A stretch of DNA of 64,000 nt from a virus. Taxonomy: Duplodnaviria; Caudoviricetes. How positions within the stretch are numbered: the first letter of the stretch is position 1; each line of letters starts with the position of its first letter. Of this stretch, positions 31,038 to 48,426 are shown one piece after another. The DNA is taken from the IMG/VR virus record IMGVR_UViG_2775507243_000004, positions 1 through 64,000 of that record. One strand, given 5' to 3'. The notes below the pieces were generated by a model. It made no database searches. It was not told where the DNA came from and saw only the letters and a program-made list of their open reading frames with translations. The translations under genes were made by a program, and so were the position numbers.

Positions 31038-31254
31038 AATTAATAAAGAAGAACTCATCGAGCTAACAGGGAAGCAGCAAACATCAGCACAAGTAAAATG
31101 GTTTAAACAGCATTTAAATATCAATATTGCTTGTGATGCGAAAGGGCCAATCCTTAATCATGCAATTTACAGTGAACTATTAAAAAAACAATATGGCCTG
31201 ATACCTGAAGCCCCCAATGCTGTTAAACGCCCACAAGTAATATTGAGAAACTAA
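31024..31254 (+). CDS. DUF4224-like excisionase/directionality factor
   Basis: EELIELTG...AQVKW, immediately before int. Confidence 0.7.
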   Translation: MSSIRINKEELIELTGKQQTSAQVKWFKQHLNINIACDAKGPILNHAIYSELLKKQYGLIPEAPNAVKRPQVILRN

Positions 31255-32396
31255 TGACTCGAAAACGTGAGAAAAATAAGGGACTAACCAATAGCAGGAT
31301 TTATATTAAAAATAATCGCTATTATTTTTTCTCTGCCAATTACACAATTAGCCCAATTGATGGGAAGGCAAGGCAGTGGCATAGCCTTTGCCTAGTTTCA
31401 GATGGTGAATTAAATGCAAGGCTTGCCGCGCAAAAAATAATTAGCCATAACACTCAAACAGATGAAGAAGGCAACTTTCCTACCCACTTTAAAAACTATG
31501 CATCTTATGTCTTTAAAAAGCGAGCGAAAGAAGCCCCAAAAGATCTACCACGCTTGCTGATGCACGAAACAGCCAATAAGAATTTAAATGGTATATTTGA
31601 AACGATTGAAACCGCATTTCGCCAATTTAATATTGTTGATGTACTTCCTGTTGATATCGCCTCTTTTGTTGACCAGTGGGAAGGTAAAAGAATGGCGCAG
31701 GTGTATCAATCGAGGTTATCTGATTTTTTTAAATGGGCGTGTCGGAGAGGATACAGAGCAGAAAACCCATGCAGAGAAATATCCGTCGCCAAGCCGAAGA
31801 AACGAAGCCGCTATATCACCGACGATGAATTTAACGAGGTAAAAGAAGCGCTATTGATGGGGCTAGATGGCCAGCCAACACGAAGTGGCAAAATGGTCAG
31901 TTGCTACGTGGATCTTTGTTTCTTGCTGTACCAGCGAACAACAGAAATAAGATTGCTGCGCTGGGATCAAATCACATCCGAAGGAATTTTATTTACGCCG
32001 ACCAAAACAGAAAAAAGCAGCGGTGCAAAAGTACAAGTTCCAATGACCCAAGCAGTACAGGATGTTTTAAGTAGAGCAAGACAAGCGTATCCAGAGCGCG
32101 AGATCAAATCAGAGTATGTAATCCACACTCATGATTTAAAGCCTTACACGACTACAGGAATAGGCTCAGCGTGGAAACGTGCAGCGCAACGAGCAGGTGT
32201 TAGCAATGCAACGCTAAAAGACTTACGAGCAAAGGCAATGACCGATGCAAAGCGGGATGGCTATACAGTGAAGCAAATCAGTGTTGGCGGTGCGCATACT
32301 GATGAAGAAATGACCGAGAGCTACATCAAGCTCAGGGAAACACCAGTCAGCGAGGTAGTTCTCAAGCTACCAGTAAAAAAACAGCCCGAAAAATAG
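31254..32396 (+). CDS. int: Tyrosine integrase
   Basis: QRTTEI, KDLRAKA, AH...Y catalytic pattern; adjacent to att. Confidence 0.9.
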   Translation: MTRKREKNKGLTNSRIYIKNNRYYFFSANYTISPIDGKARQWHSLCLVSDGELNARLAAQKIISHNTQTDEEGNFPTHFKNYASYVFKKRAKEAPKDLPRLLMHETANKNLNGIFETIETAFRQFNIVDVLPVDIASFVDQWEGKRMAQVYQSRLSDFFKWACRRGYRAENPCREISVAKPKKRSRYITDDEFNEVKEALLMGLDGQPTRSGKMVSCYVDLCFLLYQRTTEIRLLRWDQITSEGILFTPTKTEKSSGAKVQVPMTQAVQDVLSRARQAYPEREIKSEYVIHTHDLKPYTTTGIGSAWKRAAQRAGVSNATLKDLRAKAMTDAKRDGYTVKQISVGGAHTDEEMTESYIKLRETPVSEVVLKLPVKKQPEK

Positions 32397-32473
32397 CCCG
32401 TAAGAATGCCGTTTTCTCTGCTTTTTTCCTCGCTTTGCGGGATTATATTAGAACATCTTCTAATATAACGGGC

Positions 32474-32511
32474 AAAACAAAAGGGCTAGCTTTCGCTAAC
32501 CCTTTGTTTTT
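32474..32511. terminator. Bidirectional terminator after the tRNA 3' end
   Basis: AAAACAAAAGGGCTAGC-TTTC-GCTAACCCTTTGTTTTT. Confidence 0.75.
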
Positions 32512-32513
32512 AT

Positions 32514-32558
32514 TGGTCGGAATGAGAGGATTCGAACCTCCGACCCCTTGCACCCCAT
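32514..32558 (-). repeat. att core: 3' half of tRNA-Pro(GGG)
   Basis: Minus strand ATGGGGTGCAAGGGGTCGGAGGTTCGAATCCTCTCATTCCGACCA; the 5' half is absent. Confidence 0.88.
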
Positions 32559-32949: not shown

Positions 32950-34314
32950 TTACTCTAAAATATTACCAAATATAATGCGAAGACTTTCATCTGATACGTC
33001 ACGAGCATTTATTTTTTCTGCTGGTAACTCTAAAACATCTCTAATCTCTTGTAGTCTATTTTTCATTCGATCACCGACTGGAGAACGAATCAGCAATGGA
33101 TCAACACATCCTAAGACTAACTCAAGAACTATATGCACAAGTACACTCTCAGATGCTAATTCATCCAATTCAATACGAACACCACTAGGCAAATTTTTAC
33201 CTAAAATTTCCAACAAGTATGGGCGAACATTATTAGCAATTTTTTTCAATTGACCTAATAAATTTTCACCAATCACATCATCATCTAAAATCCAATTTTG
33301 AATGGCAATATGTGTTGGTAAATTGGAATTATTTCGTAATGTATTATTATTCACAACAGGTTCCTTAGGAGAATTACAACTCTCAATCCAATTATCAATA
33401 GTAAAATCTAAAAAATTATTATTTTCAACCTCTTCATGGGAATAATTAGTCCTACAAAGTGTTTCATTTTTATACATTGAATATTTCTTCAATGCACGTA
33501 GCAATATAGGTGATTGAACGGCATCAAAATCAACTTTTGACAACGCTAATGTATCTAAAAGCAATGAACTTGCCTCTAATGGTTTGATATTCTTTTCAAT
33601 TAATTCAATTGATGCATATGAATTTTCACTAACAACTTTTGCAGCTTTTTCAAAATTTGTTTCATATAAATGCATGCATGTACTAATATGTCGTTGTATG
33701 CCTGGTTGTACCCCAAGCTCATTCGCGATGAATTGCTGTACCCCCCAGAAAGCAAACCAATTATATGGAACCCCAAGCCACAAATCATTTGAACGATTAA
33801 TAACTGTCATCGACAATCGATTTTCATCCATACGAAGCATTACTTGTGTATTACAAGGAATATCTCGTGATGAACTACTAATATCTTTCGCCGAATACAT
33901 AGAAAGAACTACACGCCGACTAAAAGGTAGTTTCCTCAAATGTTCGATTGCATCTTTAATTTGGTCAACGCCAAAATAACTCCTTAAACGAACCCCATAA
34001 GCACCATTCAGGGTTTCACCATCATCAGAGTATTGATCATAAGAAGGAAGAATTTCTTGCAATGGAGCAAGCTTATTACTTCCAGTAAGTAACCATGCAG
34101 TTTCGACAAGTGCAAAAACAGGATTAATTGTCCTCCCTTGAAGAAAACAAAGTCGCTCACCTTGGTCGAGCTCAACACAAACATGACCTAGTTCAATACA
34201 TGGACCAACCCTAGATTCAACCTTTGGAAGGTTGTTTTGAGTCGCAATATTTAAAAGCTGTAAATATGCCGCATTAGGAGAGAGTCCTCTTACTAAGATC
34301 ACGGTAGTCTCCAC
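32950..34314 (-). CDS. Thymidylate synthase/dUMP hydroxymethylase-like protein with C-terminal extension
   Basis: NPVFALVETAW, SDDG..GAYG, SRR, DIPCN, RSNDLWLGVPYN, MHLY. Confidence 0.88.
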   Translation of the reverse strand: METTVILVRGLSPNAAYLQLLNIATQNNLPKVESRVGPCIELGHVCVELDQGERLCFLQGRTINPVFALVETAWLLTGSNKLAPLQEILPSYDQYSDDGETLNGAYGVRLRSYFGVDQIKDAIEHLRKLPFSRRVVLSMYSAKDISSSSRDIPCNTQVMLRMDENRLSMTVINRSNDLWLGVPYNWFAFWGVQQFIANELGVQPGIQRHISTCMHLYETNFEKAAKVVSENSYASIELIEKNIKPLEASSLLLDTLALSKVDFDAVQSPILLRALKKYSMYKNETLCRTNYSHEEVENNNFLDFTIDNWIESCNSPKEPVVNNNTLRNNSNLPTHIAIQNWILDDDVIGENLLGQLKKIANNVRPYLLEILGKNLPSGVRIELDELASESVLVHIVLELVLGCVDPLLIRSPVGDRMKNRLQEIRDVLELPAEKINARDVSDESLRIIFGNILE

Positions 34315-34640
34315 TTAGAAAACTTATCACTGTTTTTTTTCATCTTTTCAAGATAATTTGACTCAAGATCAATTCCTGTCTGGCCAGAAATTTTAACTAA
34401 ATAAATAAATACATCAGTCAATTCTTCACTTAATAATGGCTTAGCAGTTTCGTAATCTAAATCACCACGTACTACTTTTTTTAAAATATTTGCATACTCT
34501 CCAATTTCACCGAGCATGCAAACAACTAAGTGCTCTAAATCCTGCACATTAGATGATGTAATAGGCACATAAAATGGAACATTGCCTTGATGCTGCTTAT
34601 CAAACTCTTTTTGAAGCTCAATTATTTTCTCTAAATCCAT
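34299..34640 (-). CDS. MazG-like all-alpha NTP pyrophosphohydrolase
   Basis: GEIGEYAN...EELTDVFIY. Confidence 0.85.
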   Translation of the reverse strand: MDLEKIIELQKEFDKQHQGNVPFYVPITSSNVQDLEHLVVCMLGEIGEYANILKKVVRGDLDYETAKPLLSEELTDVFIYLVKISGQTGIDLESNYLEKMKKNSDKFSKWRLP

Positions 34641-34647
34641 GTCACAC

Positions 34648-35544
34648 CTATGCATTTAAATTAGAGATTAAATTATCGATACTTTTTTGGTAAATTAATG
34701 TCGCATCAGCAATTGCCGTTCCATGAGATCTTTTTTTCCTTAATTGTTCTAAATCACGAGCAGCTTCAATTGCGCCCTCCAACCTTTCAAGAGTCAATTG
34801 AGAGGTCAATTTTGGATCTAGTTCAGTCCCTTTTAACCCTGCCTCTAAAGCTTCTTTCAAGCTAAGCAGTGGAGCGGCAGAAACAACCGTTACAGACTCT
34901 TTAAGTTCATTAAGCATCTTACTTAAAATACTTAATGGGTTAACCTCATTTGTAAAATATCGAAGTAAGCTTAGGCTGCTTAAAGTTTCTAGACGTGGAC
35001 GCACCAGAGAAGAAGAACTACTGTTGTAATATGCACGGAAAGCAAAAATAGTTAACTTTACTATTTTTAGATGAGGAATCCCCGCATAAATGTCAGCTAA
35101 TGTTTGACGAATTTCTTCTAAATTAACTTTCAAAAAATTACAAACTTCTAACGATCTAAAATAACAAGTACAATATAATACATCGTCTTCAATTTGACAT
35201 TGTAAAATCATAAATGAAGGGATTGGTTTATCATCTTTACCAAGTTCAACAATCTGCTCTTGTGAAATCAAAGAATAAAGAGCTCGATTACTTGATGAGT
35301 TTCTTTTTAGATCCTCAATAATATATTCTACCCCATCACCATAATATTGAGCATGAGTGAAATACAAATCTGGAGGACACTTTTTAGAACGCCACTTTGC
35401 TGCAACGTTCTCAACATCTAGCATCACGAATCCAGCAAGAGCTGCTGTTTTACACTCAAAGTTCAAAATCCAATTAAATTTCGCCCCGTGTTCCAATTGA
35501 ACTTTGGCTTGCGCATGTAAGTCATACAAGCTAATTTCACTCAT
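34648..35544 (-). CDS. Divergent thymidylate-synthase-fold protein lacking the catalytic Cys
   Basis: IIEDLKRNSSSNRALYSL, IPSF, LYCTCYFRSLEV align with TS motifs. Confidence 0.65.
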   Translation of the reverse strand: MSEISLYDLHAQAKVQLEHGAKFNWILNFECKTAALAGFVMLDVENVAAKWRSKKCPPDLYFTHAQYYGDGVEYIIEDLKRNSSSNRALYSLISQEQIVELGKDDKPIPSFMILQCQIEDDVLYCTCYFRSLEVCNFLKVNLEEIRQTLADIYAGIPHLKIVKLTIFAFRAYYNSSSSSLVRPRLETLSSLSLLRYFTNEVNPLSILSKMLNELKESVTVVSAAPLLSLKEALEAGLKGTELDPKLTSQLTLERLEGAIEAARDLEQLRKKRSHGTAIADATLIYQKSIDNLISNLNA

Positions 35545-36160
35545 ACAATAGCTTTAATTGCTGCATTACTATTTTATGAATATAATTAGGGTCAAGAGTC
35601 GCATCCAAAATTAATTTCTTTCCTTTATATTCAGACATTACTCTCTCATAATTCTCAGAAACTATTTTTAATTTATCAGCTTTCTCATAGCTATCAAGAA
35701 TTGGACGATTACCTAAACGTCGTACAGACTCGTCTACTGGATTACGCAAATACACAACCAGATCAGGATCTGGAAAGTCTTTATTCAGACGCTGTACAAG
35801 TTCCCAGTCAGAATCCTGAGTACAATGATATGCAAAAGATGAAAAATAATAGCGGGTACTAATCACTGAAAAGCCACGACTCATCATCTGAGTGACACCA
35901 TCAGTGTCATTATATAAATGATCAAATCTGTCGGCAGAAAACAAATATGCCATTTGATGATCAAAATGTTGAGCATTTTCTTGGAACTTCACACGCCCTT
36001 TAAATGCTTGCCGAATCATATTCCCAACAGGACCAGATGATGGCTCACTCGTCAGCATCACCTTATACCCTGAGGTCAAATAGGCTTTTTCAAGCATTGA
36101 CGCTTGTGTGGATGTACCAGAACCATCCAAACCTTCAAAAACAATAAATTGTGGCTTCAA
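35537..36160 (-). CDS. Thymidylate kinase-like dNMP kinase
   Basis: FIVFEGLDGSGTST, EPS, LFSADR, PDL. Confidence 0.88.
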   Translation of the reverse strand: MKPQFIVFEGLDGSGTSTQASMLEKAYLTSGYKVMLTSEPSSGPVGNMIRQAFKGRVKFQENAQHFDHQMAYLFSADRFDHLYNDTDGVTQMMSRGFSVISTRYYFSSFAYHCTQDSDWELVQRLNKDFPDPDLVVYLRNPVDESVRRLGNRPILDSYEKADKLKIVSENYERVMSEYKGKKLILDATLDPNYIHKIVMQQLKLLYE

Positions 36161-36178
36161 TCTAATTACACCTAAACG

Positions 36179-37000
36179 TTATTTAATATCAACCAGACCC
36201 GTACTAGAATCTAGCGTTAAACCATAATATTTAATTTCTTTAATTTCCTGATCATCGCAATTATAAATAGCCACGCTATTTATATACCCTGGTGTTAAAT
36301 AACTCATGGATCCAACACCAGATATTTTCATCCCCCGAGCTCCGAGGCGACAACTTAATCGAGCATGCTGATGTCCATGCAACAGGGCAGAAAATCCATA
36401 GTCATCCAACAAAGAAAGCACACTGTAAGCATTTCTTGTTGTAGAACTATCCTCATCTTCAACCGGAATAAAATGATGGTGAGCAATGGCAATTCTAAAC
36501 CGATGAGAAGTCTTTTCAGGGCAATGTTCTTCAAGCAACGCTTTCACTTTCACTAGATCAACTTTACCCATTTTGTGATCTAAATGATATGAAGTATTCA
36601 TCAACAAAAAATCTACGTCATCACTCTTAATGAAGCATGCACCGCTATTATTAAACCGACACTGAGTATCATTTCGAATGCCAGCACTCCACGCATCAAA
36701 AAGCGAAAATCCAAGCCTCCCTCCACTTTTAATAAGATCATGATTTCCAGGACAAACAAGAACATTTCTGAGATTAAAACCATTTTTAATTATGGCAGAC
36801 CTAATGATTTCTTGCGCCTCAGCATACCCATCAGGACTACCCTTGAAAGTTACATCACCTGAGATAACGAGAAACGACCCAATTTTGTTCTCAACAACGC
36901 CTAAAAGTGAATCTAAAGCAATCTTGATGTCACTACTTTTCTGATGAGCGAGAGGATTTCCAAAATGGAGATCGGAAATGTGTACAATATCAAACTTCAT
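36179..37000 (-). CDS. Calcineurin-like metallophosphoesterase
   Basis: SDLH, SGD, PGNHD, HHH, HGHQH. Confidence 0.9.
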   Translation of the reverse strand: MKFDIVHISDLHFGNPLAHQKSSDIKIALDSLLGVVENKIGSFLVISGDVTFKGSPDGYAEAQEIIRSAIIKNGFNLRNVLVCPGNHDLIKSGGRLGFSLFDAWSAGIRNDTQCRFNNSGACFIKSDDVDFLLMNTSYHLDHKMGKVDLVKVKALLEEHCPEKTSHRFRIAIAHHHFIPVEDEDSSTTRNAYSVLSLLDDYGFSALLHGHQHARLSCRLGARGMKISGVGSMSYLTPGYINSVAIYNCDDQEIKEIKYYGLTLDSSTGLVDIK

Positions 37001-37176
37001 TATGCCAACATGAGTGTAATAGTAAGCAGCAGTATACCTAGCCTAGAATTATTAGGGAGGTGCAACAGACAAGAAGTAAGTACTAAATCAATTATTAACA
37101 CCTCACAATGCAAACCATTACTTACTTTGCATACCTTGATTTTTATTACTTCACGTATCACCCACTATACTTCTCC

Positions 37177-37325
37177 CTAAAATAGCCAGCCCAGCGTCCC
37201 GCCTTCCCGTTGGTAATCACGAGTTTCTTGCAACTAACAATTGATGCTAACTCCCCCCGACCCAAGCAATTGTGGATAACGCCGGCCATGGCCAAGCCTT
37301 GATCAAACTCGAAAAGTACACCGTC
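37177..37325 (-). pseudogene. Decayed, internally deleted copy of the dam 3' end
   Basis: Shares TTGGTAATCAC and GGCCATGGCCAAG..TTGATCAAACTCGAA with 38765-39010. Confidence 0.7.
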
Positions 37326-37344
37326 CCCTTGTTTTTTTCACGCT

Positions 37345-38764: not shown

Positions 38765-39565
38765 TCAAAATAGTCCCCCCAAGTCCCCCGCATCCCAATT
38801 GGTAATCACCAGCTCTTTGCTGCTGGCAATCTGGCCTTGCTTACCATTATTGCCGTTGCTGTACTTGATGCTCAGCCCCTGCATGGTGAGGCCTTCGAAG
38901 GCTTGCCGGATGTCAGCGTGGTCGTTGATGCTGACCATTACCCTGCCCTGGCAATTGCGCATAAAGTCGGCCATGGCCAAGTATTGATCAAACTCGAACG
39001 GCACACCGTAGCCTTCGGTTTGCCAGTACGGCGGATCGCAATAAAAGAAGGTATGGGCGCGATCGTAGCGGCGCATGCAATCCAGCCAGCTGAGGTTTTC
39101 TACCGCGGTACCAGCTAGGCGCAGGTGGGCAGAGGAGATATTTTCTTCGATGCGGCACAGATTAACGATCGGGGCCGTGGTGGCCGTGCCAAATGACTGG
39201 CCATTGACCTTGCCGCCAAAGGCATGCTGCTGCAGATAAAAGAACCGCGCTGCACGTTGAATATCGGTCAGCGTTTCTGAGCGCGTATCTTGCAGCCATT
39301 TAAAGACTTGGCGCGAGGACAGCGCCCACTTAAATTGCCGGACAAACTCTTCCATATGGTTTTGCACCACGCGGTAGAGATTGACCAAGTCGCCATTGAT
39401 ATCATTAATGATTTCAACCGGCGCAGGCACCGGTCTTAAGAAATACAGCGCCCCGCCGCCACAAAATACTTCTACATAGCACTCGTGAGGGGGAAACAAC
39501 GCAAGCAGCTTATCCGCAAGGCGGCGTTTACCGCCCATCCAGGGAATGATTGGGGATGTTGACAT
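38765..39565 (-). CDS. D12-class N6-adenine DNA methyltransferase (Dam-like)
   Basis: PWMGGK, EVFCGG, DPPY. Confidence 0.93.
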   Translation of the reverse strand: MSTSPIIPWMGGKRRLADKLLALFPPHECYVEVFCGGGALYFLRPVPAPVEIINDINGDLVNLYRVVQNHMEEFVRQFKWALSSRQVFKWLQDTRSETLTDIQRAARFFYLQQHAFGGKVNGQSFGTATTAPIVNLCRIEENISSAHLRLAGTAVENLSWLDCMRRYDRAHTFFYCDPPYWQTEGYGVPFEFDQYLAMADFMRNCQGRVMVSINDHADIRQAFEGLTMQGLSIKYSNGNNGKQGQIASSKELVITNWDAGDLGGLF

Positions 39566-40054: not shown

Positions 40055-40080
40055 CAAAATAGAACGATCGTTCTATTTTG
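40055..40080. promoter_or_regulatory. 26-bp perfect palindromic operator upstream of umuD
   Basis: CAAAATAGAACGATCGTTCTATTTTG. Confidence 0.8.
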
Positions 40081-40092
40081 GTGATACCCCCA

Positions 40093-40536
40093 ATGGTTAA
40101 TCTTCATACGGCTGATTGGCCTGTTTATCGCTGTGCTGGTTCGGCCCATCGTATTCCTCTGGCGTATTGCGATACACCGATTCATGCGGGATTCCCAAGC
40201 CCCGCCGAGGGCTATCTCGATGATTATCTAAGCCTTGATGAGCATCTAATTCACGATAAAGCCTCGACGGTCTTACTGCGTACTACAGGCGATTCGATGA
40301 TAGACGCCCATATTTGTGATGGGGATATATTGATTGTGGATCGTGGCAGGCAGGCTGTTTCGGGCGATATTGTGGTAGCGTCTTTGGAGGGTGAATTCAC
40401 CTTAAAGCGCTTGATTATCCGTGGCTCACAGTTGATTCTGCAGCCGGCAAATGCTTTGTTTTCGCCTATTGTGGTGAGCCCAGGGCAAGAGCTAGAGATC
40501 TTTGGGGTGGTATCGGGTATTGCGAGGCGGCTTTGA
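40093..40536 (+). CDS. umuD: UmuD-like S24 autoprotease
   Basis: AGFPSPA, GDSM, TLKRL. Confidence 0.9.
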
Positions 40537-41807
40537 TGTTGCGGCAGATGGCATTGGTGGATTGCAATAATTTCTACGCGTCCTGTGAGCGGGTATTTCA
40601 GCCCAAATTACGCACGCGCCCCATTGTGGTGTTGTCGAACAATGATGGCTGTGTGGTCGCACGTAGTGCGGAAAGTAAGGCCTTGGGTATTCCTATGGGC
40701 GTGCCGCTGTATCAGATCCGTGATTTGATTAAAGAGCATGGCGTGGTGGTTAGATCGAGTAATTACGCGCTGTATGGGGATTTAAGCCGTAGGGTGATGA
40801 CAATTTTAGGCCGCTATTCTCCGCAGCAAGAAGTCTATTCAATCGATGAGAGTTTTTTAGATTTAAGCGGCTTTGCCAATGTCACGCAATACAGCCAGCA
40901 AATACGCCGTGATGTAAAGCAGCGTACGGGTATTCTGGTGAGTGTGGGGATTGCACCTAGTAAAACACTGGCTAAGCTTTGCAATCATGTGGCGAAGAAG
41001 ATCCAGCCCTGGGCGGCAACAGGTGTTTGTAATCTGCATGAGATTGAGCCATCTGCGCTTAAAGACTTACTGCAAAGTCTGCCTGTAGGTGAAGTATGGG
41101 GGATTGGTCCACGCTTGGCCCGCAAGCTGGAGTTTGATGGCATTTGCACGGTGTATGACTTGAAGTGTGCACCGGCCAGCCAAATGCGCAGCCGTTACAG
41201 CGTATTGATGGAGCAGATCATTCGCGAGTTAAATGGTGAGGCCTGCTTGGAGCTGGATGAGGTGCCGGTAGCTAAACTGCAAATTATGTCTAGCCGCTCG
41301 TTTGGAAGTAAAACAGGGCTGCAGAGTGAGATTCAGGCCGCCGTTGCTTTGCATGTAAGCACGGCAGCAGAAAAGCTACGCCATCAGCAATCGCTGGCCA
41401 GCCAGTTGATGGTGTTTATTCGCACCAATCCATTTAGTGAGCGTGATTTACCGATGCGTCGCTCTATTGTGATGCAGCTGGCTAATCCAACAGATGACAC
41501 TTTATTGCTACAAAGCGCTGCGATGGCAGGCTTGCAGCAAATCTTTGTGCCGGGCTACCCCTATCAAAAAGCGGGGGTGATGCTGGATGGTATACAAGCA
41601 AAAGCTGCGCAACAGATGGATCTATTTGCAGAAGCCGCCAGCCCGCAGCGGGAGAAATTAATGGCGGCAATGGATACGATCAATCAGCGCTTTGGTCGCC
41701 ATACCCTGCGTAGCGCCGCAGAGTTGATGAGCCACGCCAGCCAGATGAATCAGCATCATCGATCACCACGCTATACAACTTGCTGGGAGGAGTTGTTGAG
41801 TATTTAA
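40536..41807 (+). CDS. umuC: Y-family DNA polymerase V subunit
   Basis: [28 protein letters not shown]. Confidence 0.95.
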
Positions 41808-42213: not shown

Positions 42214-43320
42214 TTATTTTTTTGGCAGTAATGGCTCCCCCCACTCTGCACGGATTTCTGGAGGGAATGGGGCTTCGAATGCGGTTTTATGCGAAAGCCA
42301 ATTAAAGGTGCCCCAGAGTAAATACAAGGGTCCAAAGATAGGGAAAAACAAAAAGGAGATCACCACAAAAATAGGATGGTCCTGATTCCACTTTTTTATT
42401 TTTGGGCCATATGGGCCAATACACCCCATAGATTGCCACCAACTATTAGGGGCAGCTTCGGCTAAAGTTTCGCCAACAGGCAAGGCCGGACCGTTTTCTT
42501 CCATATAGGCATGCAGATACGCCCATGATGCCCGAACGGAATGTTCACTCATGACCAGTGGATTACCAATCGTAAAGAAATCAACAAAGTCTGGCATTGC
42601 CTCATGCTTTAGCATTTGATCCCATGCTTTATCATGGTCACTTTTGGCGACTTGTTTTTGTGCAAAATCAGGATCTTTAATTCCCACACCTAGGGAGTGA
42701 ACCGTCGATGGTAATTGCCCCAACATAACAACTTTTGAAACATAAACAAATATTAATGAATTCCAATCGTATTCAATAATCACTGTTGGCCAAGCATACA
42801 ATGGATTGCGTTTTTTAAAACTTTTTCTTATATAATCAATAAGCCCGGGTGTGTCACGAAAAACTCTATAAACTTTTTGCTTTTTCTTATCAAAAATTAA
42901 GCTATCGTTTTTAAGAGAAAACATATCAGCTCTAAGCTGATAAAGCCCAATATGAAGTGCATAAAACACACCCAAGCCACTAAGAGTCATAAAAACAAAT
43001 TTAAATAAAAAAGTGAATAATCCTTCTATTTCTAATTCAAAAAAGCAGACATACAATGCGTATGACATTAGGGGTAAGCCCCCAAAAAAGACAAGTAGCG
43101 AAAATAAGGTGACCAAGCCTCTTTGATAATGAGTTGTACTCGCCAGCTCGATGGCCTCTGGGTAAATCGTTTTAACGCCGTTCAAGCTGCTACCTTTGCA
43201 CCGCGCAGTCGTTTCTTTACTTAGGTATGCTGCAATATCAATGCTAGATACATCAATAATGGCGGAAGGGTATTCGCCCTTTAATAGGCGATAGGCTGTT
43301 GTTGAGGCAGTTGGAGTCAT
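42214..43320 (-). CDS. Membrane immunity protein (DUF6708-like), paralog 2
   Basis: TM pairs; near-identical C-half to 43420-44556; WAYLHAYMEENG. Confidence 0.7.
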   Translation of the reverse strand: MTPTASTTAYRLLKGEYPSAIIDVSSIDIAAYLSKETTARCKGSSLNGVKTIYPEAIELASTTHYQRGLVTLFSLLVFFGGLPLMSYALYVCFFELEIEGLFTFLFKFVFMTLSGLGVFYALHIGLYQLRADMFSLKNDSLIFDKKKQKVYRVFRDTPGLIDYIRKSFKKRNPLYAWPTVIIEYDWNSLIFVYVSKVVMLGQLPSTVHSLGVGIKDPDFAQKQVAKSDHDKAWDQMLKHEAMPDFVDFFTIGNPLVMSEHSVRASWAYLHAYMEENGPALPVGETLAEAAPNSWWQSMGCIGPYGPKIKKWNQDHPIFVVISFLFFPIFGPLYLLWGTFNWLSHKTAFEAPFPPEIRAEWGEPLLPKK

Positions 43321-43419
43321 AAGCTTTTAATTTTTTAGATGGGATTGAATGATTAATCTATTTGCTATGATTCCCACTTCACCCGCGGCTATCGCACAAG
43401 GCAATAGCCGCGTTAAGGC

Positions 43420-44556
43420 TTATTTTTTGGGCAGTACTGGCTCTCCCCACTCTGCACGGATTTCTGGGGGGAATGGGGCTTCGAATGCGGTTTTATGCGA
43501 AAGCCAATTAAAGGTTCCCCAGAGTAAATACAATGGTCCAAAGATAGGGAAAAACAAAAAGGACATCACCACAAAAATAGGATGGTCTTGATTCCACTTT
43601 TTTATATTTGGACCATATGGGCCAATACACCCCATAGATTGCCACCAACTATTAGGGGCGGCCTCAGCTAAAGACTCACCAACAGGCAAGGCTGGGCCGT
43701 TTTCTTCCATATAGGCATGCAGATAGGCCCATAATGCCTGCACAGAATATTCACTCATGACCAGTGGATTACCAATGGTAAAGAAACCAACAAAGTCTGG
43801 TATTGCCTCGTGCTTTAGCATTTGATCCCAGGCTTTATCATGGTCACTTTTTGCGACTTGTTTTTGTGCAAAATCAGGATCTTTAATCCCCACCCCCAGG
43901 GTGTGAACCGTTGATGGTAATTGCCCCAACATCACAACTTTTGAAACATAAACAAAGATTAAAGAATCCCAATCGTATTCAACAATCACGGTAGGCCAAG
44001 CATAAAATGGATTACGTTTTTTTAAGCTGTTTCTAACGTAATCGATAAGGCCAGGTATGTTTCTAAAAACACGGTAAACTTTTTTCTTTTTCCTATCAAA
44101 AAACAAGCTGTCGTTTTTAAGTGAAAACATATCGACTCTAAGTTGATAAATGCCGAGATGAAATGAGAAAAATACACTTAAAATACAGATTGTCAGCCCA
44201 AAACTCACCATTAGGAAAAGCACCACATCTAGATCAGAGATTGCTGCTGAAAACAACAATAGTCCAATATAAGTGCCATATAACATTACGGGAAAAAAAC
44301 CAAAAATAACAAGCATTGCAAACACAGTTAAAAGGCCACGCTGATAATGAGTAGTACTGGCCAACTCGATGGCAGCTGGATAGATCGTTTTAACTTCGCT
44401 CAGCGTACTGCCACTTTGCCGCGTGGTTGTTTTCTTATTCAGATACGTGACAATGCCCAAGCTGGATGCATTGATCATTGCTGGCGGGTATTCACCTTGC
44501 AGTACACGATAAGCAGTGGTGGTTGCCGTATTTAATGTCATTTTTAATAAGCTCAC
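43420..44556 (-). CDS. Membrane immunity protein (DUF6708-like), paralog 1
   Basis: Overlaps the effector stop; multi-TM. Confidence 0.72.
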   Translation of the reverse strand: MSLLKMTLNTATTTAYRVLQGEYPPAMINASSLGIVTYLNKKTTTRQSGSTLSEVKTIYPAAIELASTTHYQRGLLTVFAMLVIFGFFPVMLYGTYIGLLLFSAAISDLDVVLFLMVSFGLTICILSVFFSFHLGIYQLRVDMFSLKNDSLFFDRKKKKVYRVFRNIPGLIDYVRNSLKKRNPFYAWPTVIVEYDWDSLIFVYVSKVVMLGQLPSTVHTLGVGIKDPDFAQKQVAKSDHDKAWDQMLKHEAIPDFVGFFTIGNPLVMSEYSVQALWAYLHAYMEENGPALPVGESLAEAAPNSWWQSMGCIGPYGPNIKKWNQDHPIFVVMSFLFFPIFGPLYLLWGTFNWLSHKTAFEAPFPPEIRAEWGEPVLPKK

Positions 44557-47417
44557 AGATATTTAATCGAGGCGGGTGCAGATTTATTTACGGGCGAAGG
44601 TTTTTTTTCTTCATATTTAATTTGAGGTTCAGATTCAGATTGGCGGCTCTTTTTTAAAGCCTTAAATAAAGCTTTTTCTTCTTCTGCCGATGTACTAAAC
44701 CTATTTTCTTTACCAAAATAGCAATCTTCGGCCCAATCCTGTAGCGCGGTGGGTGTTAGCATTGCAGAGCCAGAATATACAAGTACACCTAGCCCCATTA
44801 AAACCAAGGCCCAGCCGGTTAAGCTCATACCCAAAATAGCAATCCCACCCTCTGTGGCCACAGCTGTAGCAGAAACAATCTCCCCTGTTCCTAGCCATGT
44901 AGCAACTATTTCTGTTGTTGCCGCAATACCAGCAACTCCACCTGCACCATATAATGCACCAGTAAGGAACCAAGAAGCAGCTAATTTATTGTTGTGTTTA
45001 TAGTTTTCCCCAGCAAAAACAAAAGCCTGCGCACTATCCACCAGCAAAGCCCCCCAGCCCGCATAGCCCCCTACGGCTTTTAAAACCATAGTAAGAGCAC
45101 CATGCTTTGCAAATTGCGCCGCAGCAATACCTGCTATATCCCCAGTTGCCCCAACCGTCCCAGAGCCATTACTGGCAATCCCAAACCAAGCATCGCGCAA
45201 AGCTTTTTGATCTTCTGGGCTGGCAGCAGCTAAAGATTGAAGGCTGCCATTTAAGCCCAGCATTTGCAGGGATAAAAAGCCGATGGCAATGCGGCCTTCT
45301 GCCTTGATAAAGACCGCTTTACTACCACGCCAGCTGTTTTCTTTTAAGTTATATAAGGCTTCTTTGGCCGTCTCTGCCACGTGCCTTTGCTGCGCAAACA
45401 TTTTGCCAAAATCCTCTGCCGATACTTTTTGTATCCCCTCTAAGCCTTGTGCGGTTAAATTGAGTTTCGAGACTTTGAGGGATACTTTTTCAGCGTCTTT
45501 TAGGGCCGTGGCGCTTTGTGTAGCTTGCTTCAGCTTATCGGTATCGGTGAGTACATGCAGCTCAATCAAGCTTTGCTTGCGCATGCTATTTATCAGTTTT
45601 TTACTTGGCGTGTAACGCTTACTAGCAAGTAATGCAATCGCCTCATCAAAAGGCAAGAACACACTGACTAATAGGGGCCGAGGCTTGATCTTGGTTTTAT
45701 TAAGCACACCAGCCAGAATATGCTCCATATTCTGGCCAAGCAAAGTCATGCCCAGTAGCTTACCTTCTATTACTTTAAAGCTACTGTGCTCGCTTGCGTA
45801 GCCAACCGCCCCGCCAATTAGCGCTGTAGAAACGCCCTGATGAAAGCCAAAGACCGCCTCATTCAGCCAGCTAAACTTAGGGCTAAGCTGTGGCATAAGT
45901 AAATCTTTGAGCAGATTATAGGTTTTGGCCTGATTATCTTCGGCCACATATTCAAACAGCGATTTTTGATTAGAAAGCTGTGCGCGCAGCATCACTGCAT
46001 CCTGCTCACTAATTTTTTTGATTGCCTGTTTATATGCAAGCTCAGCGCTGCTAGGGCCTAGGCTGCCCCCGCCGTAAACATGAAAAGCCTCCTCGCTATA
46101 GCAAGCCCCCGCACTATGGTGGGTTTGCTTAGGATCGTTCGGGTCATTTTCATCAAAATGCAGGGCAAAACAATCAGTCACGTTTTTTTGAGAGGCAGCG
46201 ACGTAATCATCATCGTATGAGGTGATGATCTGATCCATCTCAGCCATTTTTTTATCATACTCGAGCATAAACTGTGCACGTTTTGGCTCATCAAAAAAAG
46301 TACTTAGTTTTGCCCAGTCTGTTTGGGTGCGCTCATTAGCCTTCGTCTTACGAAGTGCATCATCTTCCAGCTGATAAACCTCTCCCATACTTGCTGGTGT
46401 AACAGGCTGCCCCGCATGAGTTGGCTTCCATACTGTGTCTTTTAGGCTAGGTCGAAAAGAGGGGTTAAGTTTGTTTTTGTCATATAGCGCTTTGTTCATT
46501 GAGCCTATACGTCTTTGTGCCCCATCGAATAAGGTGGTTCCAGTCTTCTTATAATGATCATCACCGATGCATTTCTTTAAACCAATAAGCAAGCCTGAGC
46601 ATAAGACACCCCGACTGTAAGGGACGGCAACTTCACTCTTCCTCACCAGCGCACGCATGCGCAAGTGATTGAGCTCGGCAGAAACCGCAACTGGGTCTGG
46701 TAGGGCAAACACAAGGCCTTTATCTTTGGTCTTGGTGTGCATATTGCCCAATTGCTGCATATGGCCATTCAGTTGATCAAGCGCATCTACTCCGCCTTTA
46801 AAGGGGAAGTAGGGCTCCGCATCTTTGCCCGGGCTTACATTGCGCAGCGCATATTCAGCAACAAATTTCCCTGGGCTTTCTGCCTTGGCAACAAATGCAT
46901 TATCTGGTGCTTTTCCGCTATCTAAGTAGGCTTTAACATCAAGGCATTGCATGACTTTGGGATTGGCTTGATTGGCTTTTTTTAGCTTGTCATTCCATAA
47001 GTTGGCGCTATACGCCAGCCATATTTTCCCCGTTTTATGCGCTTGGGGAATCGTCAGCAAACGCACTTTATGCAAATGGCCGGATTTATTACAAGAAAAA
47101 GGCTCTGCTAAATAAAAGGAGGGATGTGAGGCAGAGTAAAGCGCCCCTTCTGGCGTAATCCGGTAAATATCCCAGCCATCTTTTTTGCCTGCTGGCGGGG
47201 TTTCATAAAACACATATAAATAGCCCCGGCGCAGGGTTCGCAGTACATAGCGCGATTGCTTAGGCGTAGCAAGCTGAGCCGCTTTTTGCGCAATGGCGTG
47301 CGAAAGCAGCTTTGCACTGCCGGATGGCTGTAAATCTGCTTTATTCGCAATCACTGAGGGGCGCACCAATAGAATAGGCAGTCCACTTTTTTCACACGCT
47401 CTACAGGTATCTGTCAT
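44553..47417 (-). CDS. MIX-domain (VasX/BTH_I2691-like) T6SS effector, likely pore-forming
   Basis: LPILLVRP, LRRGYLYVF, DPVA; hydrophobic C-terminal helices. Confidence 0.8.
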   Translation of the reverse strand: MTDTCRACEKSGLPILLVRPSVIANKADLQPSGSAKLLSHAIAQKAAQLATPKQSRYVLRTLRRGYLYVFYETPPAGKKDGWDIYRITPEGALYSASHPSFYLAEPFSCNKSGHLHKVRLLTIPQAHKTGKIWLAYSANLWNDKLKKANQANPKVMQCLDVKAYLDSGKAPDNAFVAKAESPGKFVAEYALRNVSPGKDAEPYFPFKGGVDALDQLNGHMQQLGNMHTKTKDKGLVFALPDPVAVSAELNHLRMRALVRKSEVAVPYSRGVLCSGLLIGLKKCIGDDHYKKTGTTLFDGAQRRIGSMNKALYDKNKLNPSFRPSLKDTVWKPTHAGQPVTPASMGEVYQLEDDALRKTKANERTQTDWAKLSTFFDEPKRAQFMLEYDKKMAEMDQIITSYDDDYVAASQKNVTDCFALHFDENDPNDPKQTHHSAGACYSEEAFHVYGGGSLGPSSAELAYKQAIKKISEQDAVMLRAQLSNQKSLFEYVAEDNQAKTYNLLKDLLMPQLSPKFSWLNEAVFGFHQGVSTALIGGAVGYASEHSSFKVIEGKLLGMTLLGQNMEHILAGVLNKTKIKPRPLLVSVFLPFDEAIALLASKRYTPSKKLINSMRKQSLIELHVLTDTDKLKQATQSATALKDAEKVSLKVSKLNLTAQGLEGIQKVSAEDFGKMFAQQRHVAETAKEALYNLKENSWRGSKAVFIKAEGRIAIGFLSLQMLGLNGSLQSLAAASPEDQKALRDAWFGIASNGSGTVGATGDIAGIAAAQFAKHGALTMVLKAVGGYAGWGALLVDSAQAFVFAGENYKHNNKLAASWFLTGALYGAGGVAGIAATTEIVATWLGTGEIVSATAVATEGGIAILGMSLTGWALVLMGLGVLVYSGSAMLTPTALQDWAEDCYFGKENRFSTSAEEEKALFKALKKSRQSESEPQIKYEEKKPSPVNKSAPASIKYL

Positions 47418-48409: not shown

Positions 48410-48426
48410 TAATTTTGGCCTGTGTA

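What the first reader, a model, noticed from the sequence alone, without database searches (positions are those of the whole stretch)
32950..37000. Five-gene pyrimidine-nucleotide-modifying operon at a prophage end: candidate undescribed anti-phage system
Seen: five co-oriented, mostly overlapping or abutting genes, visibly more AT-rich than the phage genes. Order: metallophosphoesterase, dTMP-kinase-like, Cys-less TS-fold protein, MazG-like, TS/hydroxymethylase-like. The operon sits just inside the att end of the right element. Established: TS homolog + dNMP kinase + all-alpha pyrophosphatase is the toolkit lytic phages use to make hmdU/hmdC DNA, and prophage ends are defence-cargo hotspots. 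Inference: with no DNA polymerase or base-transfer enzyme nearby in this window, the operon may make a modified dNMP/dNTP as a poison or signal, or intercept phage-made modified nucleotides, with the phosphoesterase as effector or eraser. I do not recognise this architecture as a named system.
Basis: partly seen in the sequence, partly recalled or inferred. Interest (0 to 1): 0.92.

Follow-up and report, generated by a model that had tools for sequence, protein, structure and literature searches.

The report
Mobile thymidine-nucleotide rewiring operon, candidate defence
A rare, horizontally moving bacterial operon combines the enzymes that some phages use to swap thymine for 5-hydroxymethyluracil with nucleotide-degrading enzymes of a kind known from phage defence, so it is probably an untested system that tampers with DNA building blocks during conflicts with viruses.

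Summary
Five co-oriented, overlapping or abutting genes lie at 32950-37000 on the minus strand, at 33-39% GC against about 48-55% nearby. They sit about 400 bp inside the att end of a roughly 50.6-kb element in tRNA-Pro.

The genes encode:
- a Calcineurin-CE-like metallophosphoesterase;
- a dTMP-kinase homologue;
- a thymidylate synthase (TS)-fold protein with an invariant Ser in place of the catalytic Cys;
- a DCTPP1-like MazG;
- a TS homologue with the dUMP-hydroxymethylase signature, fused to a helical domain found only in this cassette (here called X).

All five genes occur in the same order in 15 of 17 loci from several phyla. Most of these are small low-GC islets, often beside recombinases. 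A variant without the kinase occurs on E. coli plasmids and chromosomes. The Ser-for-Cys protein was found in none of 50,697 phage records and in 0 of 55 genomes of related species. The host has its own thyA and tmk.

No PADLOC system matches, and my ten literature searches found no description of this architecture.

My best reading (0.45) is a thymidine-pool rewiring module that makes 5-hmdU nucleotides and hydrolyses canonical ones, used for defence. The main rival is self-modification of the mobile element's DNA to escape restriction. No phenotype, expression or binding data could be obtained. Earlier scan notes cover only this same stretch; different TS-containing cassettes were noted on other genomes.

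The parts
36179..37000 (-). Metallophosphoesterase (MPE, 273 aa), Calcineurin-CE-like. It has no PUA domain.
   Evidence: PF00149 E 5.6e-13. All six metal-binding motifs are invariant in 18 of 18 homologues. The best NCBIfam hit is DS9_1_antiphage at 86 bits, below its cut-off of 420. The profile aligns over its full length with GpdQ, Rv0805 and Icc in PDB. hhalign against a DS9_1-like ORF gives probability 99.35 over 242 columns.
35537..36160 (-). dTMP-kinase homologue (207 aa), additional to the host tmk.
   Evidence: PF02223 E 1.3e-38. TIGR00041 scores 149.4 bits against a cut-off of 83.25. It is 27% identical to the host Tmk encoded elsewhere in the genome. It is missing in L002 and in the E. 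coli variant.
34648..35544 (-). TSL: a TS-fold protein (298 aa) with invariant Ser110 in place of the catalytic Cys, no folate-binding segment, and a helical C-terminal extension of about 115 aa.
   Evidence: PIPSF is invariant in 19 of 19 sequences, together with R87, E133 and N141; R130 is nearly invariant. The AF2 model has pLDDT 84.9. Foldseek gives probability 1.00 to MilA, TS, T4 dCMP hydroxymethylase and AfhB. There are 128 homologues; every source name shown is 'hypothetical protein' except one 'thymidylate synthase'.
34299..34655 (-). MazG-like all-alpha NTP pyrophosphatase (118 aa), DCTPP1/RS21-C6-like.
   Evidence: The metal ligands ExxE and ExxD are invariant in 18 of 18. The profile's best PDB hit is DCTPP1 at E 2.5e-11. 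Pfam MazG scores 21.2 bits, just under its cut-off of 22.
33415..34314 (-). TS2 catalytic domain (residues 1 to about 300), a dUMP-hydroxymethylase-type TS homologue.
   Evidence: PF00303 E 7.3e-29. The catalytic set R35, E71, Y106, R133, C154, R174, S175, D177, H215 and Y217 is invariant; R134 is nearly invariant. Asp occupies the ThyA L143 position in 19 of 19, and Asn the N177 position in 18 of 19, as in the SPO1, M6, PaMx11 and MW2 enzymes. The nearest phage hits are M6/PaMx11/Bordetella-phage TS homologues, several annotated as dU hydroxymethyltransferase.
32950..33414 (-). Domain X (residues about 301-454 of TS2): a poorly conserved helical module specific to this cassette.
   Evidence: It is homologous to separate ORFs of about 120-135 aa downstream of short TS2 genes. 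An exhaustive profile search gave 77 hits, which I sorted by listed length: 48 stand-alone proteins of 113-132 aa, 16 C-terminal fusions on proteins of 425-452 aa, and 13 fragments or repetitive proteins. All 7 long hits tested carry a TS domain. No family or fold match was found.
37001..37344 (.). Upstream intergenic region. It holds a fossil fragment of the dam gene at about 37240-37330.
   Evidence: Alignment with 38940-39030. No sigma-70-like promoter or terminator was predicted in this gap.
32511..32558 (-). att repeat: the 48-bp 3' part of tRNA-Pro that bounds the element carrying the cassette.
   Evidence: An identical copy lies at an intact tRNA-Pro(GGG) about 50.6 kb to the right in the genome.

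Best explanation
The stretch is one self-contained, horizontally mobile operon of five genes and six modules that acts on the thymidine branch of the dNTP pool.

**Proposed mechanism (inferred from sequence; nothing assayed)**
- The MazG-like pyrophosphatase turns pyrimidine dNTPs into dNMPs.
- The Calcineurin-CE-like phosphoesterase turns dNDPs (or dNMPs) into lower phosphates.
- TS2 converts dUMP into 5-hydroxymethyl-dUMP instead of dTMP.
- The dedicated Tmk homologue phosphorylates that product, and host NDK can then make 5-hmdUTP.
- The Ser-for-Cys TS-fold protein (TSL) keeps the dNMP-binding residues but lacks the nucleophile and the folate site. It would act as a non-catalytic partner or dNMP sensor of TS2.
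- The fast-evolving X domain would act as a regulatory or sensing module.

**Net effect.** Thymidine nucleotides are drained and replaced by 5-hmdU nucleotides.

**Most likely use.** The cassette is carried as cargo on prophage ends, plasmids and small islets. I think its most likely use is anti-phage or anti-mobile-element defence: starving or poisoning the invader's DNA synthesis.
For: **Shown**
- The cassette is conserved in order in 15 of 17 loci across phyla. Its genes overlap.
- The only other conserved neighbour is X.
- The catalytic residues of MPE, MazG and TS2 are invariant.
- TS2 has the hydroxymethylase signature: Asp at the ThyA L143 position, Asn after the Cys, and NRSND. It shares this with 4 of 4 phage reference TS homologues (SPO1, M6, PaMx11, MW2) and 0 of 7 ThyAs. 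The rule for L143 and N177 comes from PMC13326640, section 24.
- In a quick tree TS2 groups with these phage enzymes, away from ThyA (SH-aLRT 88-94).
- The host has its own thyA and tmk. The cassette copies are only 21% and 27% identical to them.
- MPE is a relative of the Calcineurin-CE/DS-9A domain.
  - That domain converts dADP to dAMP in a dNTP-depleting defence.
  - MazG can replace it there (bioRxiv 10.64898/2026.01.15.699771, abstract and section 5).
- A TS homologue plus its dNMP kinase is enough to put a modified base into E. coli DNA (PMC13326640, section 24).
- A system with a thymidylate synthase domain is among the experimentally validated E. coli defences. The Fig. 3C legend also lists dNMP kinase, 5-hmdU DNA kinase and NMAD domains (PMC13092281, passages).

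**Context**
- The cassette is lower in GC than both flanks in 14 of 17 loci, and lower than at least one flank in the other three.
- A recombinase lies within one or two genes in 7 of 14 loci, and housekeeping genes are directly adjacent in several. No phage structural families appear among the nearest neighbours scanned.
- TSL is found in 0 of 55 related species genomes and in none of 50,697 phage records.
- It is present on 2 conjugative E. coli plasmids and in 5 of 5,426 E. coli chromosomes.
Against: - There is no phenotype, no expression data and no product chemistry.
- No recognisable sensor or known defence domain is present. There is no PADLOC system match.
- The defence-island signal is weak. 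Among 148 flanking ORFs, the only PADLOC families hit by more than one ORF were HNH and mad2, with 2 ORFs each.
- In this prophage the cassette lies co-oriented downstream of com-dam at the extreme end, where Mu carries its anti-restriction gene mom (recalled). No predicted promoter or terminator lies in the 345-bp gap. This fits the self-modification rival.
- MazG's nearest solved relatives prefer dCTP-type substrates, not obviously dTTP or dUTP.
- The roles of TSL and X are pure inference.
- The E. coli variant lacks Tmk, and its downstream ORF is cut by an IS. Either the kinase is dispensable or those copies are decaying.
Confidence: 0.45

Rival explanations
1. Self-modification for anti-restriction. 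The cassette is a late-expressed cargo that replaces T by 5-hmdU in the DNA of the prophage or plasmid that carries it. The DNA then escapes restriction in the next host. This would be a pyrimidine counterpart of Mu mom.
For: - Every enzymatic step has an analogue in hmdU phages.
- M6-type phage loci pair the TS homologue with a 5'-deoxynucleotidase and a triphosphate hydrolase.
- In this window the cassette lies co-oriented behind com-dam and fic at the att end.
- It also occurs on conjugative plasmids.
- A TS homologue plus a kinase suffices to modify cellular DNA (PMC13326640, section 24).
Against: - TSL is absent from all 50,697 phage records.
- No phage structural family was seen among the nearest-neighbour ORFs scanned in the 14 other loci with flanks. 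Several cassettes lie directly between housekeeping genes, where self-modification brings no transfer benefit.
- No dedicated DNA polymerase and no post-replicative modification enzymes are present.
Confidence: 0.2
2. Small-molecule production. The operon makes a free modified nucleoside or nucleotide, such as 5-hmdU or a derivative made with TSL. This would serve as an antimetabolite, a chain-poisoning analogue or a signal, and the phosphoesterase would release it.
For: - TS2's best solved relative is MilA, a TS-fold enzyme of nucleoside-antibiotic biosynthesis.
- A phosphoesterase and a pyrophosphatase could trim the product.
- TSL's invariant pocket residues suggest it binds a specific ligand.
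Against: - No transporter, tailoring enzyme or resistance gene is conserved beside the cassette.
- The kinase pushes the product towards the triphosphate, not towards release.
Confidence: 0.1
3. Interceptor of phage-made modified nucleotides. MazG and the phosphoesterase destroy hm-dCTP or hm-dUTP made by infecting phages, and the TS-fold proteins bind or sense those nucleotides.
For: - MazG is DCTPP1-like. From memory, DCTPP1 prefers 5-modified dCTP.
- TSL looks like a dNMP binder without chemistry.
Against: - It does not explain a fully catalytic dUMP-hydroxymethylase-type TS2.
- It does not explain a dedicated kinase conserved in 16 of 17 loci.
Confidence: 0.08
4. Ordinary auxiliary nucleotide metabolism. 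An extra thyA/tmk/mazG set boosts dTTP supply for the prophage or complements the host.
For: TS, Tmk and MazG genes are common phage auxiliary genes. PHROGs hits to phage TS, Tmk and MazG families support this.
Against: - The host has intact thyA and tmk.
- TS2 lacks the ThyA-type Leu, His and Gln and has the hydroxymethylase residues.
- A Cys-less TS paralogue and domain X are conserved with it.
- The cassette moves as a unit outside phages.
Confidence: 0.07

Closest known systems
Pre-replicative 5-hmdU pathway of thymidine-replacing or hypermodifying phages (SPO1; M6, PaMx11, Bordetella phage MW2)
   Same: - TS2 shares the D-x-P-C-N / N-R-S-N-D signature with their TS homologues (annotated or described as dUMP hydroxymethyltransferases) and groups with them in a quick tree.
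- phmmer scores to them are 85-128 bits, against 12-64 bits for ThyAs.
- In PaMx11 and MW2 the TS homologue is followed directly by an HD-domain 5'-deoxynucleotidase-type gene. MW2 also has a triphosphate hydrolase nearby. The cassette would cover the same logic with MPE and MazG.
- The association of dU-hmt with hypermodification genes is described in PMC5889632 (passages).
   Different: - No phage DNA polymerase, 5-hmdU DNA kinase or aGPT-Pplase is present.
- The hydrolases belong to other superfamilies (metallophosphoesterase and MazG rather than HD).
- There is an extra Cys-less TS-fold protein and the X domain.
- The cassette is found in bacterial islets, plasmids and a prophage end. TSL is in none of 50,697 phage records.
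PUA-Cal-HAD; its two-gene make-up matches DS-9 of DefensePredictor (bioRxiv 10.64898/2026.01.15.699771; PMC13092281)
   Same: - The phosphoesterase is homologous to the Calcineurin-CE-type domain. NF053862 is its best NCBIfam hit, and hhalign gives probability 99.35 to a DS9_1-like ORF.
- That system depletes dNTPs, senses a modified dNMP, and has rare variants in which MazG replaces Calcineurin-CE (abstract and section 5).
   Different: - There is no PUA-like domain. MPE starts with its first metal motif at residue 10.
- There is no HAD partner.
- The score is 86 bits against the family cut-off of 420.
- The cassette adds biosynthetic enzymes (TS2, Tmk).
Validated E. coli defence system with a thymidylate synthase domain in DefensePredictor; the Fig. 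3C legend also lists dNMP kinase, 5-hmdU DNA kinase and NMAD domains (PMC13092281). Earlier scan notes call it DS-4.
   Same: Phage-style thymidine-modification enzymes operate in a bacterial, non-phage operon that protects against phage (text passages and figure legend).
   Different: - None of the five proteins hits a 5-hmdU DNA kinase, NMAD or DS-type TS or kinase model in Pfam, NCBIfam or PADLOC.
- I could not see the figure or the supplementary tables, so the exact architecture of that system is not known to me.
T4 hydroxymethyl-dC precursor pathway (gp42 dCMP hydroxymethylase, gp1 dNMP kinase, gp56 dCTPase); recalled from textbook knowledge
   Same: The three-step logic is the same: hydrolyse the canonical dNTP, modify the dNMP with a TS homologue, then rephosphorylate with a dedicated kinase.
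   Different: - TS2 is uracil-type (Asn at the N177 position in 18 of 19), whereas T4 gp42 has Asp.
- TS2N gave no phmmer hit to the T4 enzyme.
- The kinase is a Tmk homologue, not gp1-like.

Membership tests
Canonical thymidylate synthase ThyA (for TS2) | TS fold and Pfam PF00303 score above the gathering cut-off, with the catalytic Cys | tested here: met
   101.2 bits against a cut-off of 24.3. C154 is invariant in 18 of 18.
Canonical thymidylate synthase ThyA (for TS2) | Water-excluding hydrophobic residue at the E. coli L143 position, plus His147 and Gln165, as in reductive methylases | tested here: not met
   Asp, Asn and Asn in 19 of 19 TS2-family rows. Leu in 7 of 7, His in 6 of 7 and Gln in 7 of 7 ThyAs. 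The rule for L143 is from PMC13326640, section 24.
dUMP hydroxymethylase (SPO1 gp29 / M6-type dU-hmt) (for TS2) | Catalytic Cys, Glu58 and Tyr94 equivalents; Asp at the L143 position; Asn at the N177 position | tested here: met
   C154, E71, Y106 and D151 occur in all rows. N185 occurs in 18 of 19, with Asp in L017. The same residues occur in the SPO1, M6, PaMx11 and MW2 enzymes.
dUMP hydroxymethylase (SPO1 gp29 / M6-type dU-hmt) (for TS2) | Groups phylogenetically with known dU-hmts rather than with ThyA or dCMP hydroxymethylase | tested here: inconclusive
   - This was a quick IQ-TREE run with SH-aLRT support only; the careful search did not finish.
- TS2 plus dU-hmt separate from T4 gp42 (support 88) and from ThyA (support 94).
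- Long branches were flagged.
- L013 and L017 fall outside the main TS2 clade.
dUMP hydroxymethylase (for TS2) | Product is 5-hmdUMP | not testable with these tools
   This needs an enzyme assay.
dTMP kinase (TIGR00041 equivalog) | Whole-protein score above the curated cut-off | tested here: met
   149.4 bits against 83.25. The substrate (dTMP or 5-hmdUMP) was not testable.
MazG / all-alpha NTP pyrophosphatase, DCTPP1-like | The ExxE and ExxD metal-binding motifs, and homology to solved members | tested here: met
   E50, E53, E78 and D81 are invariant in 18 of 18. The profile hits DCTPP1 at E 2.5e-11. Pfam MazG scores 21.2 bits, just under its cut-off of 22.
PUA-Cal-HAD / DS-9 | Calcineurin-CE-type phosphoesterase domain | tested here: met
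   NF053862 is the best NCBIfam hit at 86 bits. hhalign gives probability 99.35 and E 6e-21 over 242 columns to a DS9_1-like ORF.
PUA-Cal-HAD / DS-9 | N-terminal PUA-like sensor domain, a HAD phosphatase partner, and the equivalog score cut-off | tested here: not met
   - MPE is 273 aa and starts with the DxH motif at residues 10-12.
- No HAD or PUA family appears among the five proteins.
- The score is 86 bits against a cut-off of 420.
DefensePredictor system with a TS domain (legend also lists dNMPk, 5hmdUk, NMAD) | 5-hmdU DNA kinase and NMAD domains present | tested here: not met
   No such family appears among the hits of the five proteins in Pfam, NCBIfam or PADLOC at E up to 0.1. The reference architecture is known to me only from a figure legend.
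Any system in PADLOC-DB v2 | Component proteins match the models of one system | tested here: not met
   Only isolated hits were found: the MPE N-terminus to a generic 'Effector' model and to PDC-S60, and Tmk to PDC-M51B and VakA. TSL and MazG had none. TS2 had only E 0.027.

The most novel reading that the evidence does not exclude
This would be immunity, or warfare between mobile elements, by rewriting DNA-precursor chemistry rather than merely depleting it. On a trigger, the operon would swap the cell's thymidine nucleotides for 5-hydroxymethyl-dU nucleotides. The catalytically dead, Ser-for-Cys TS-fold subunit would act either as a sensor of a (modified) pyrimidine dNMP or as a dominant-negative partner that shuts down thymidylate synthesis. 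The cassette-specific X domain would be the fast-evolving trigger module. This would be the first cellular system that uses a complete phage-style base-replacement pathway against invaders.
Probability: 0.2. Interest if true: 0.85.

Novelty: new variant of a known kind. Interest (0 to 1): 0.62.

Why it matters
Nucleotide-pool attack is an emerging theme in bacterial immunity. Known examples include dCTP deaminase, dGTPase, PUA-Cal-HAD and Kongming. A thymidine-directed system has not turned up in my searches.

This cassette would also show phage base-replacement chemistry recruited by cells and mobile elements. It supplies a conserved pseudo-enzyme of the thymidylate synthase fold whose role can be tested directly.

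It is small (4 kb), self-contained and has an E. coli variant, so cloning, phage challenge and LC-MS of dNTP pools and DNA would settle its function quickly. If instead it modifies the carrier element's own DNA, it would be a new anti-restriction cargo of temperate phages and plasmids.

Tried and rejected
**Searches that found nothing**
- Near-identical DNA in phage records: none.
- tRNA scan of the window: none. The att fragment was found by eye and by pattern instead.
- Atlas look-up of domain X: no usable hit.
- The search for homologous proteins on TS2 residues 250-454: no hits.
- Longer, fused forms of TSL: none found, which the tool itself calls weak evidence.
- RNA runs: no RNA holder was listed.
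- A third att copy that would bound the left, P2-like element: not found in the window.

**Unfinished or indirect analyses**
- The careful tree search did not finish in 300 s, so I report the quick tree.
- A true DS-9A (above cut-off) was not found in 301 genomes of the order. I used a weaker DS9_1-like ORF for the comparison.

**Literature**
- I made ten searches. None listed a paper describing this gene set. One search was badly specified and uninformative.
- The paper that defines Calcineurin-CE (Nicastro et al. 2023, NAR, doi 10.1093/nar/gkad879) is not held. I saw nothing of it and know it only from a reference list. It may list this architecture.
- Supplementary tables and figures of PMC13092281 and of the PUA-Cal-HAD preprint were not seen, and they may bear on novelty.

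**Readings rejected**
- Simple thyA/tmk complementation, because host copies are present.
- An SbcD/Mre11-type nuclease reading of the phosphoesterase, because only the N-terminus matches those while full-length matches go to GpdQ, Rv0805 and Icc.
- A decayed pseudogene reading of TSL, because its motif is invariant in 19 of 19 sequences across phyla.

Full report
**1. The observation**

- 36179-37000 (273 aa)
- 35537-36160 (207 aa)
- 34648-35544 (298 aa)
- 34299-34655 (118 aa)
- 32950-34314 (454 aa)

They are separated by an 18-nt gap and then overlap by 8, 8 and 16 nt. This is the layout of a translationally coupled operon. GC is 0.33-0.39 across 33-37 kb, against 0.48-0.55 in the adjoining phage DNA.

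Domain assignments are confirmed:
- Metallophos, E 5.6e-13.
- Thymidylate_kin, E 1.3e-38. TIGR00041 scores 149 bits against a cut-off of 83.
- A protein with only faint TS similarity (PF00303 E 0.031).
- A MazG-like protein, E 3.6e-4.
- A clear TS homologue, E 7.3e-29.

**2. Position in the genome**

A 48-bp stretch at 32511-32558 is the 3' part of a tRNA gene on the minus strand. The identical 48 bp recur about 50.6 kb to the right in the genome, where ARAGORN finds an intact tRNA-Pro(GGG). The cassette therefore lies about 400 bp inside one att end of a roughly 50.6-kb integrated element.

The att-proximal 19 kb of that element is cargo-rich:
- the cassette
- a Fic protein
- Mu-type Com with a D12-class Dam methylase
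- UmuD and UmuC homologues
- a VgrG / VasX-like / DUF6708 module

A fragment of the dam gene is fossilised in the 345-bp gap upstream of the cassette. This suggests cargo exchange by recombination behind dam. No sigma-70-like promoter or terminator is predicted in that gap.

The integrase at 31254-32396 and a P2 GpA-type replication gene belong to a different element on the left. I did not find its second att.

**3. Co-conservation**

The 298-aa protein (TSL) has 128 homologues in the large protein collection. Every source name shown is 'hypothetical protein' except one 'thymidylate synthase'.

A pattern scan of one genome per species returned 17 loci. They come from Beta-, Gamma- and Alphaproteobacteria, Campylobacterota, Bacillota, Bacteroidota, Gemmatimonadota and a Geobacter.
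- In 15 of 17 loci all five genes are present in the same order.
- L002 lacks the kinase.
- L013 has the kinase moved.

An all-against-all comparison of 152 flanking ORFs found no further conserved partner except one small ORF, described in section 6, and recombinases. The unit is therefore self-contained.

The cassette is lower in GC than both flanks in 14 of 17 loci, and lower than at least one flank in the other three.

Nearest neighbours in the 14 loci that have flanks:
- A tyrosine integrase, transposase or resolvase lies within one or two genes in 7 loci.
- Housekeeping genes are directly adjacent in several: PDH E1, GMP synthase and an RNA methyltransferase.
- No phage structural family appeared among the nearest-neighbour ORFs scanned.

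Among 148 flanking ORFs, the most frequent Pfam families were integrase domains. The only PADLOC families hit by more than one ORF were HNH and mad2, with 2 ORFs each. The defence-island signal is therefore weak.

Distribution:
- TSL is found in 0 of 55 other species genomes of the same family.
- It is found in none of 50,697 phage records by tblastn.
- A four-gene variant without the kinase sits on two conjugative IncHI1B E. coli plasmids.
- At 99.8% identity or more, the same variant is in 5 of 5,426 complete E. coli chromosomes, in an IS-rich island.

**4. The two TS-fold proteins**

*TS2.* TS2 keeps the TS catalytic residues R35, E71, Y106, R133, C154, R174, S175, D177, H215 and Y217 in 18 of 18 homologues, and R134 in at least 90%.

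PMC13326640 (section 24, read) gives two rules. The E. coli N177 position decides dUMP (Asn) against dCMP (Asp). The L143 position is a bulky hydrophobic residue in ThyA and an acidic residue in hydroxymethylases.

In my alignment:
- The L143 position is Leu in 7 of 7 bacterial ThyAs.
- It is Asp in the SPO1, M6, PaMx11 and MW2 TS homologues and in T4 gp42.
- It is Asp in 19 of 19 TS2-family proteins.
- TS2 also shares Asn after the Cys, and NRSND, with the four phage TS homologues of the dU-hmt group.
- The N177 position is Asn in 18 of 19 TS2 proteins, with Asp in L017.

Further support:
- phmmer scores of the TS2 catalytic domain are 85-128 bits to those four phage enzymes and 12-64 bits to ThyAs. 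There was no hit to T4 gp42.
- The nearest phage hits overall are M6, PaMx11 and Bordetella-phage enzymes, several annotated as deoxyuridylate hydroxymethyltransferase. PMC5889632 describes M6 and PaMx11 among the phages in which dU-hmt associates with 5-hmdU hypermodification genes (passages).
- A quick maximum-likelihood tree puts TS2 with these enzymes and away from ThyA. Support is SH-aLRT 88-94. Long branches were flagged, and the careful search did not finish.

I therefore read TS2 as a dUMP hydroxymethylase. This is inferred from sequence and has not been assayed.

*TSL.* TSL folds as a TS domain. The model has pLDDT 84.9, and Foldseek gives probability 1.00 to MilA, TS, T4 dCMP hydroxymethylase and the AfhB hydroxylase.
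- It has an invariant Ser in the Cys position (the PIPSF motif, 19 of 19).
- It keeps the equivalents of R127, D169 (as Glu) and N177 in all 19 sequences, and of R166 in at least 90%.
- By secondary-structure comparison of the two models, it lacks the roughly 40-residue segment that in TS carries the folate-binding helices and Tyr94.
- It adds a helical tail of about 115 residues.

Invariance across phyla argues for a working ligand-binding protein rather than a decayed copy. Its role as partner or sensor is inference. The complex predictor was not available.

**5. The hydrolases and the kinase**

*Phosphoesterase (MPE).*
- It has all six metallophosphoesterase motifs invariant in 18 of 18.
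- Its profile matches GpdQ, Lmo2642, Rv0805 and Icc over the full domain. It matches SbcD/Mre11 only at the N-terminus. This points to a small-molecule phosphoesterase, not a nuclease.
- Its best NCBIfam family is DS9_1_antiphage, at 86 bits, far below the equivalog cut-off of 420.
- hhalign to a DS9_1-like ORF from another genome gives probability 99.35 over 242 columns.

The PUA-Cal-HAD preprint (abstract and section 5) reports three relevant points:
- The Calcineurin-CE domain converts dADP to dAMP in a dNTP-depleting abortive-infection system triggered by a modified dNMP.
- Calcineurin-CE domains are found in effector positions of predicted anti-selfish-element systems.
- MazG can replace Calcineurin-CE in rare variants.

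*MazG.* It keeps its ExxE and ExxD metal ligands in 18 of 18 and is the best-conserved protein of the cassette. Its nearest solved relatives are DCTPP1/RS21-C6, at E 2.5e-11.

*Kinase.* It is a bona fide Tmk homologue, only 27% identical to the host Tmk. TS2 is 21% identical to the host ThyA. The host has both of its own genes elsewhere in the genome.

**6. A sixth module**

The last roughly 150 residues of TS2 (domain X) are helical, modelled with low confidence and poorly conserved (27% mean column identity in the 15-sequence alignment).

In loci where TS2 is short (about 310 aa), a separate ORF of about 120-135 aa follows it. That ORF is homologous to X.

An exhaustive profile search of 1.84 billion representatives gave 77 hits. 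I sorted them by the listed lengths:
- 48 stand-alone proteins of 113-132 aa
- 16 proteins of 425-452 aa with X at the C-terminus
- 5 apparent truncations
- 4 fragments
- 4 long repetitive proteins that I take as noise

All 7 long hits tested carry an N-terminal TS domain, and 2 of 2 small ones hit no family. X is therefore dedicated to this cassette and physically tied to TS2.

**7. How it most likely works**

The enzyme set reproduces the logic of phage base replacement:
- hydrolyse canonical nucleotides (MazG, MPE);
- divert dUMP to 5-hmdUMP (TS2);
- rephosphorylate with a dedicated kinase (Tmk).

M6-type phages place a 5'-deoxynucleotidase and a triphosphate hydrolase beside their TS homologue. 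A TS homologue plus its kinase is enough to put a modified base into E. coli DNA (PMC13326640, section 24).

I infer a thymidine-pool rewiring module. I favour a defence role (0.45) for these reasons:
- It lives mostly outside phages, as a sporadic, low-GC, recombinase-associated islet.
- One of its enzymes belongs to a family known from nucleotide-depleting defence.
- A system with a TS domain has been validated as a defence (PMC13092281, passages and figure legend).

The main rival (0.2) is modification of the carrier element's own DNA for anti-restriction. The position behind com-dam in this prophage and the plasmid copies fit that reading. Further rivals and their refutations are listed in their own section.

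**8. Comparison with known systems, and novelty**

- The cassette is not a PADLOC system.
- It is not PUA-Cal-HAD, because it has no PUA domain, no HAD partner and a score below the cut-off.
- It does not contain the 5-hmdU DNA kinase or NMAD domains that the DefensePredictor Fig. 3C legend lists alongside TS.
- Ten literature searches found no description of it.
- The Calcineurin-CE founding paper could not be read. Figures and supplements of the two key papers were not seen.
- Earlier notes of this scan on this stretch are first-reader notes only. Other TS-containing cassettes of different make-up were noted on other genomes.

I class it as a new variant of a known kind. It is a candidate nucleotide-pool-targeting system with two components not described before, the Ser-for-Cys TS-fold protein and domain X.

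**9. Limits**

- There is no phenotype, no expression data and no binding test.
- Neighbourhoods were annotated from my own ORF calls.
- The count of 17 loci is a lower bound from a pattern-based scan.
- The tree is a quick search.

Noticed in passing
window 37240-37330 compared with 38940-39030: A fragment of about 90-110 bp in the gap upstream of the cassette is clearly homologous to an internal or 3' part of the dam methylase gene. It looks like a fossil left by cargo exchange behind dam. fic lies between the fossil and the intact gene.
   Followed up: partly
window 40078-41807 (+): UmuD-like (Peptidase_S24) and UmuC-like Y-family polymerase genes lie in the same prophage, 3.5 kb from the cassette and divergent from com-dam. 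I found no evidence that they work with the cassette, but a translesion polymerase beside a base-modifying operon is worth noting.
   Followed up: partly
window 42214-51072 (-): A VgrG (Phage_GPD, T6SS_Vgr, DUF2345), a VasX_N-domain protein of 968 aa and two DUF6708 paralogues form a T6SS auxiliary module inside the prophage cargo region.
   Followed up: partly
window 31254-32505: The tyrosine integrase of the left, P2-like element ends about 110 bp from the tRNA-Pro att fragment, yet no further copy of that att was found in the window. How the left element is bounded is unexplained. A terminator-like hairpin lies at 32480-32505 on the minus strand.
   Followed up: partly
L017 9196-10146 (Sphingomonas MAG): The TS2 homologue of this locus has Asp instead of Asn at the N177 position, the dCMP-type residue. 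A C-5 cytosine DNA methylase gene lies next to the cassette. This may be a cytosine-directed variant.
   Followed up: no
L026 14982-15936 (E. coli G3/10 chromosome): In the E. coli variant, the short ORF after the TS gene is annotated as a frameshifted fragment and abuts a partial IS3 transposase gene. The kinase is also absent. These copies may be decaying.
   Followed up: no
L014 5438-6364 (Geobacter MAG): A PF06189 5'-nucleotidase gene (E 1.7e-123) lies directly upstream of the cassette in this locus only.
   Followed up: no
L036 6985-7581 and L037 7067-7648 (phages PaMx11 and MW2): In both phages the TS homologue is followed directly by an HD-domain 5'-deoxynucleotidase-type gene. This is a non-homologous counterpart of the cassette's phosphoesterase.
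   Followed up: no
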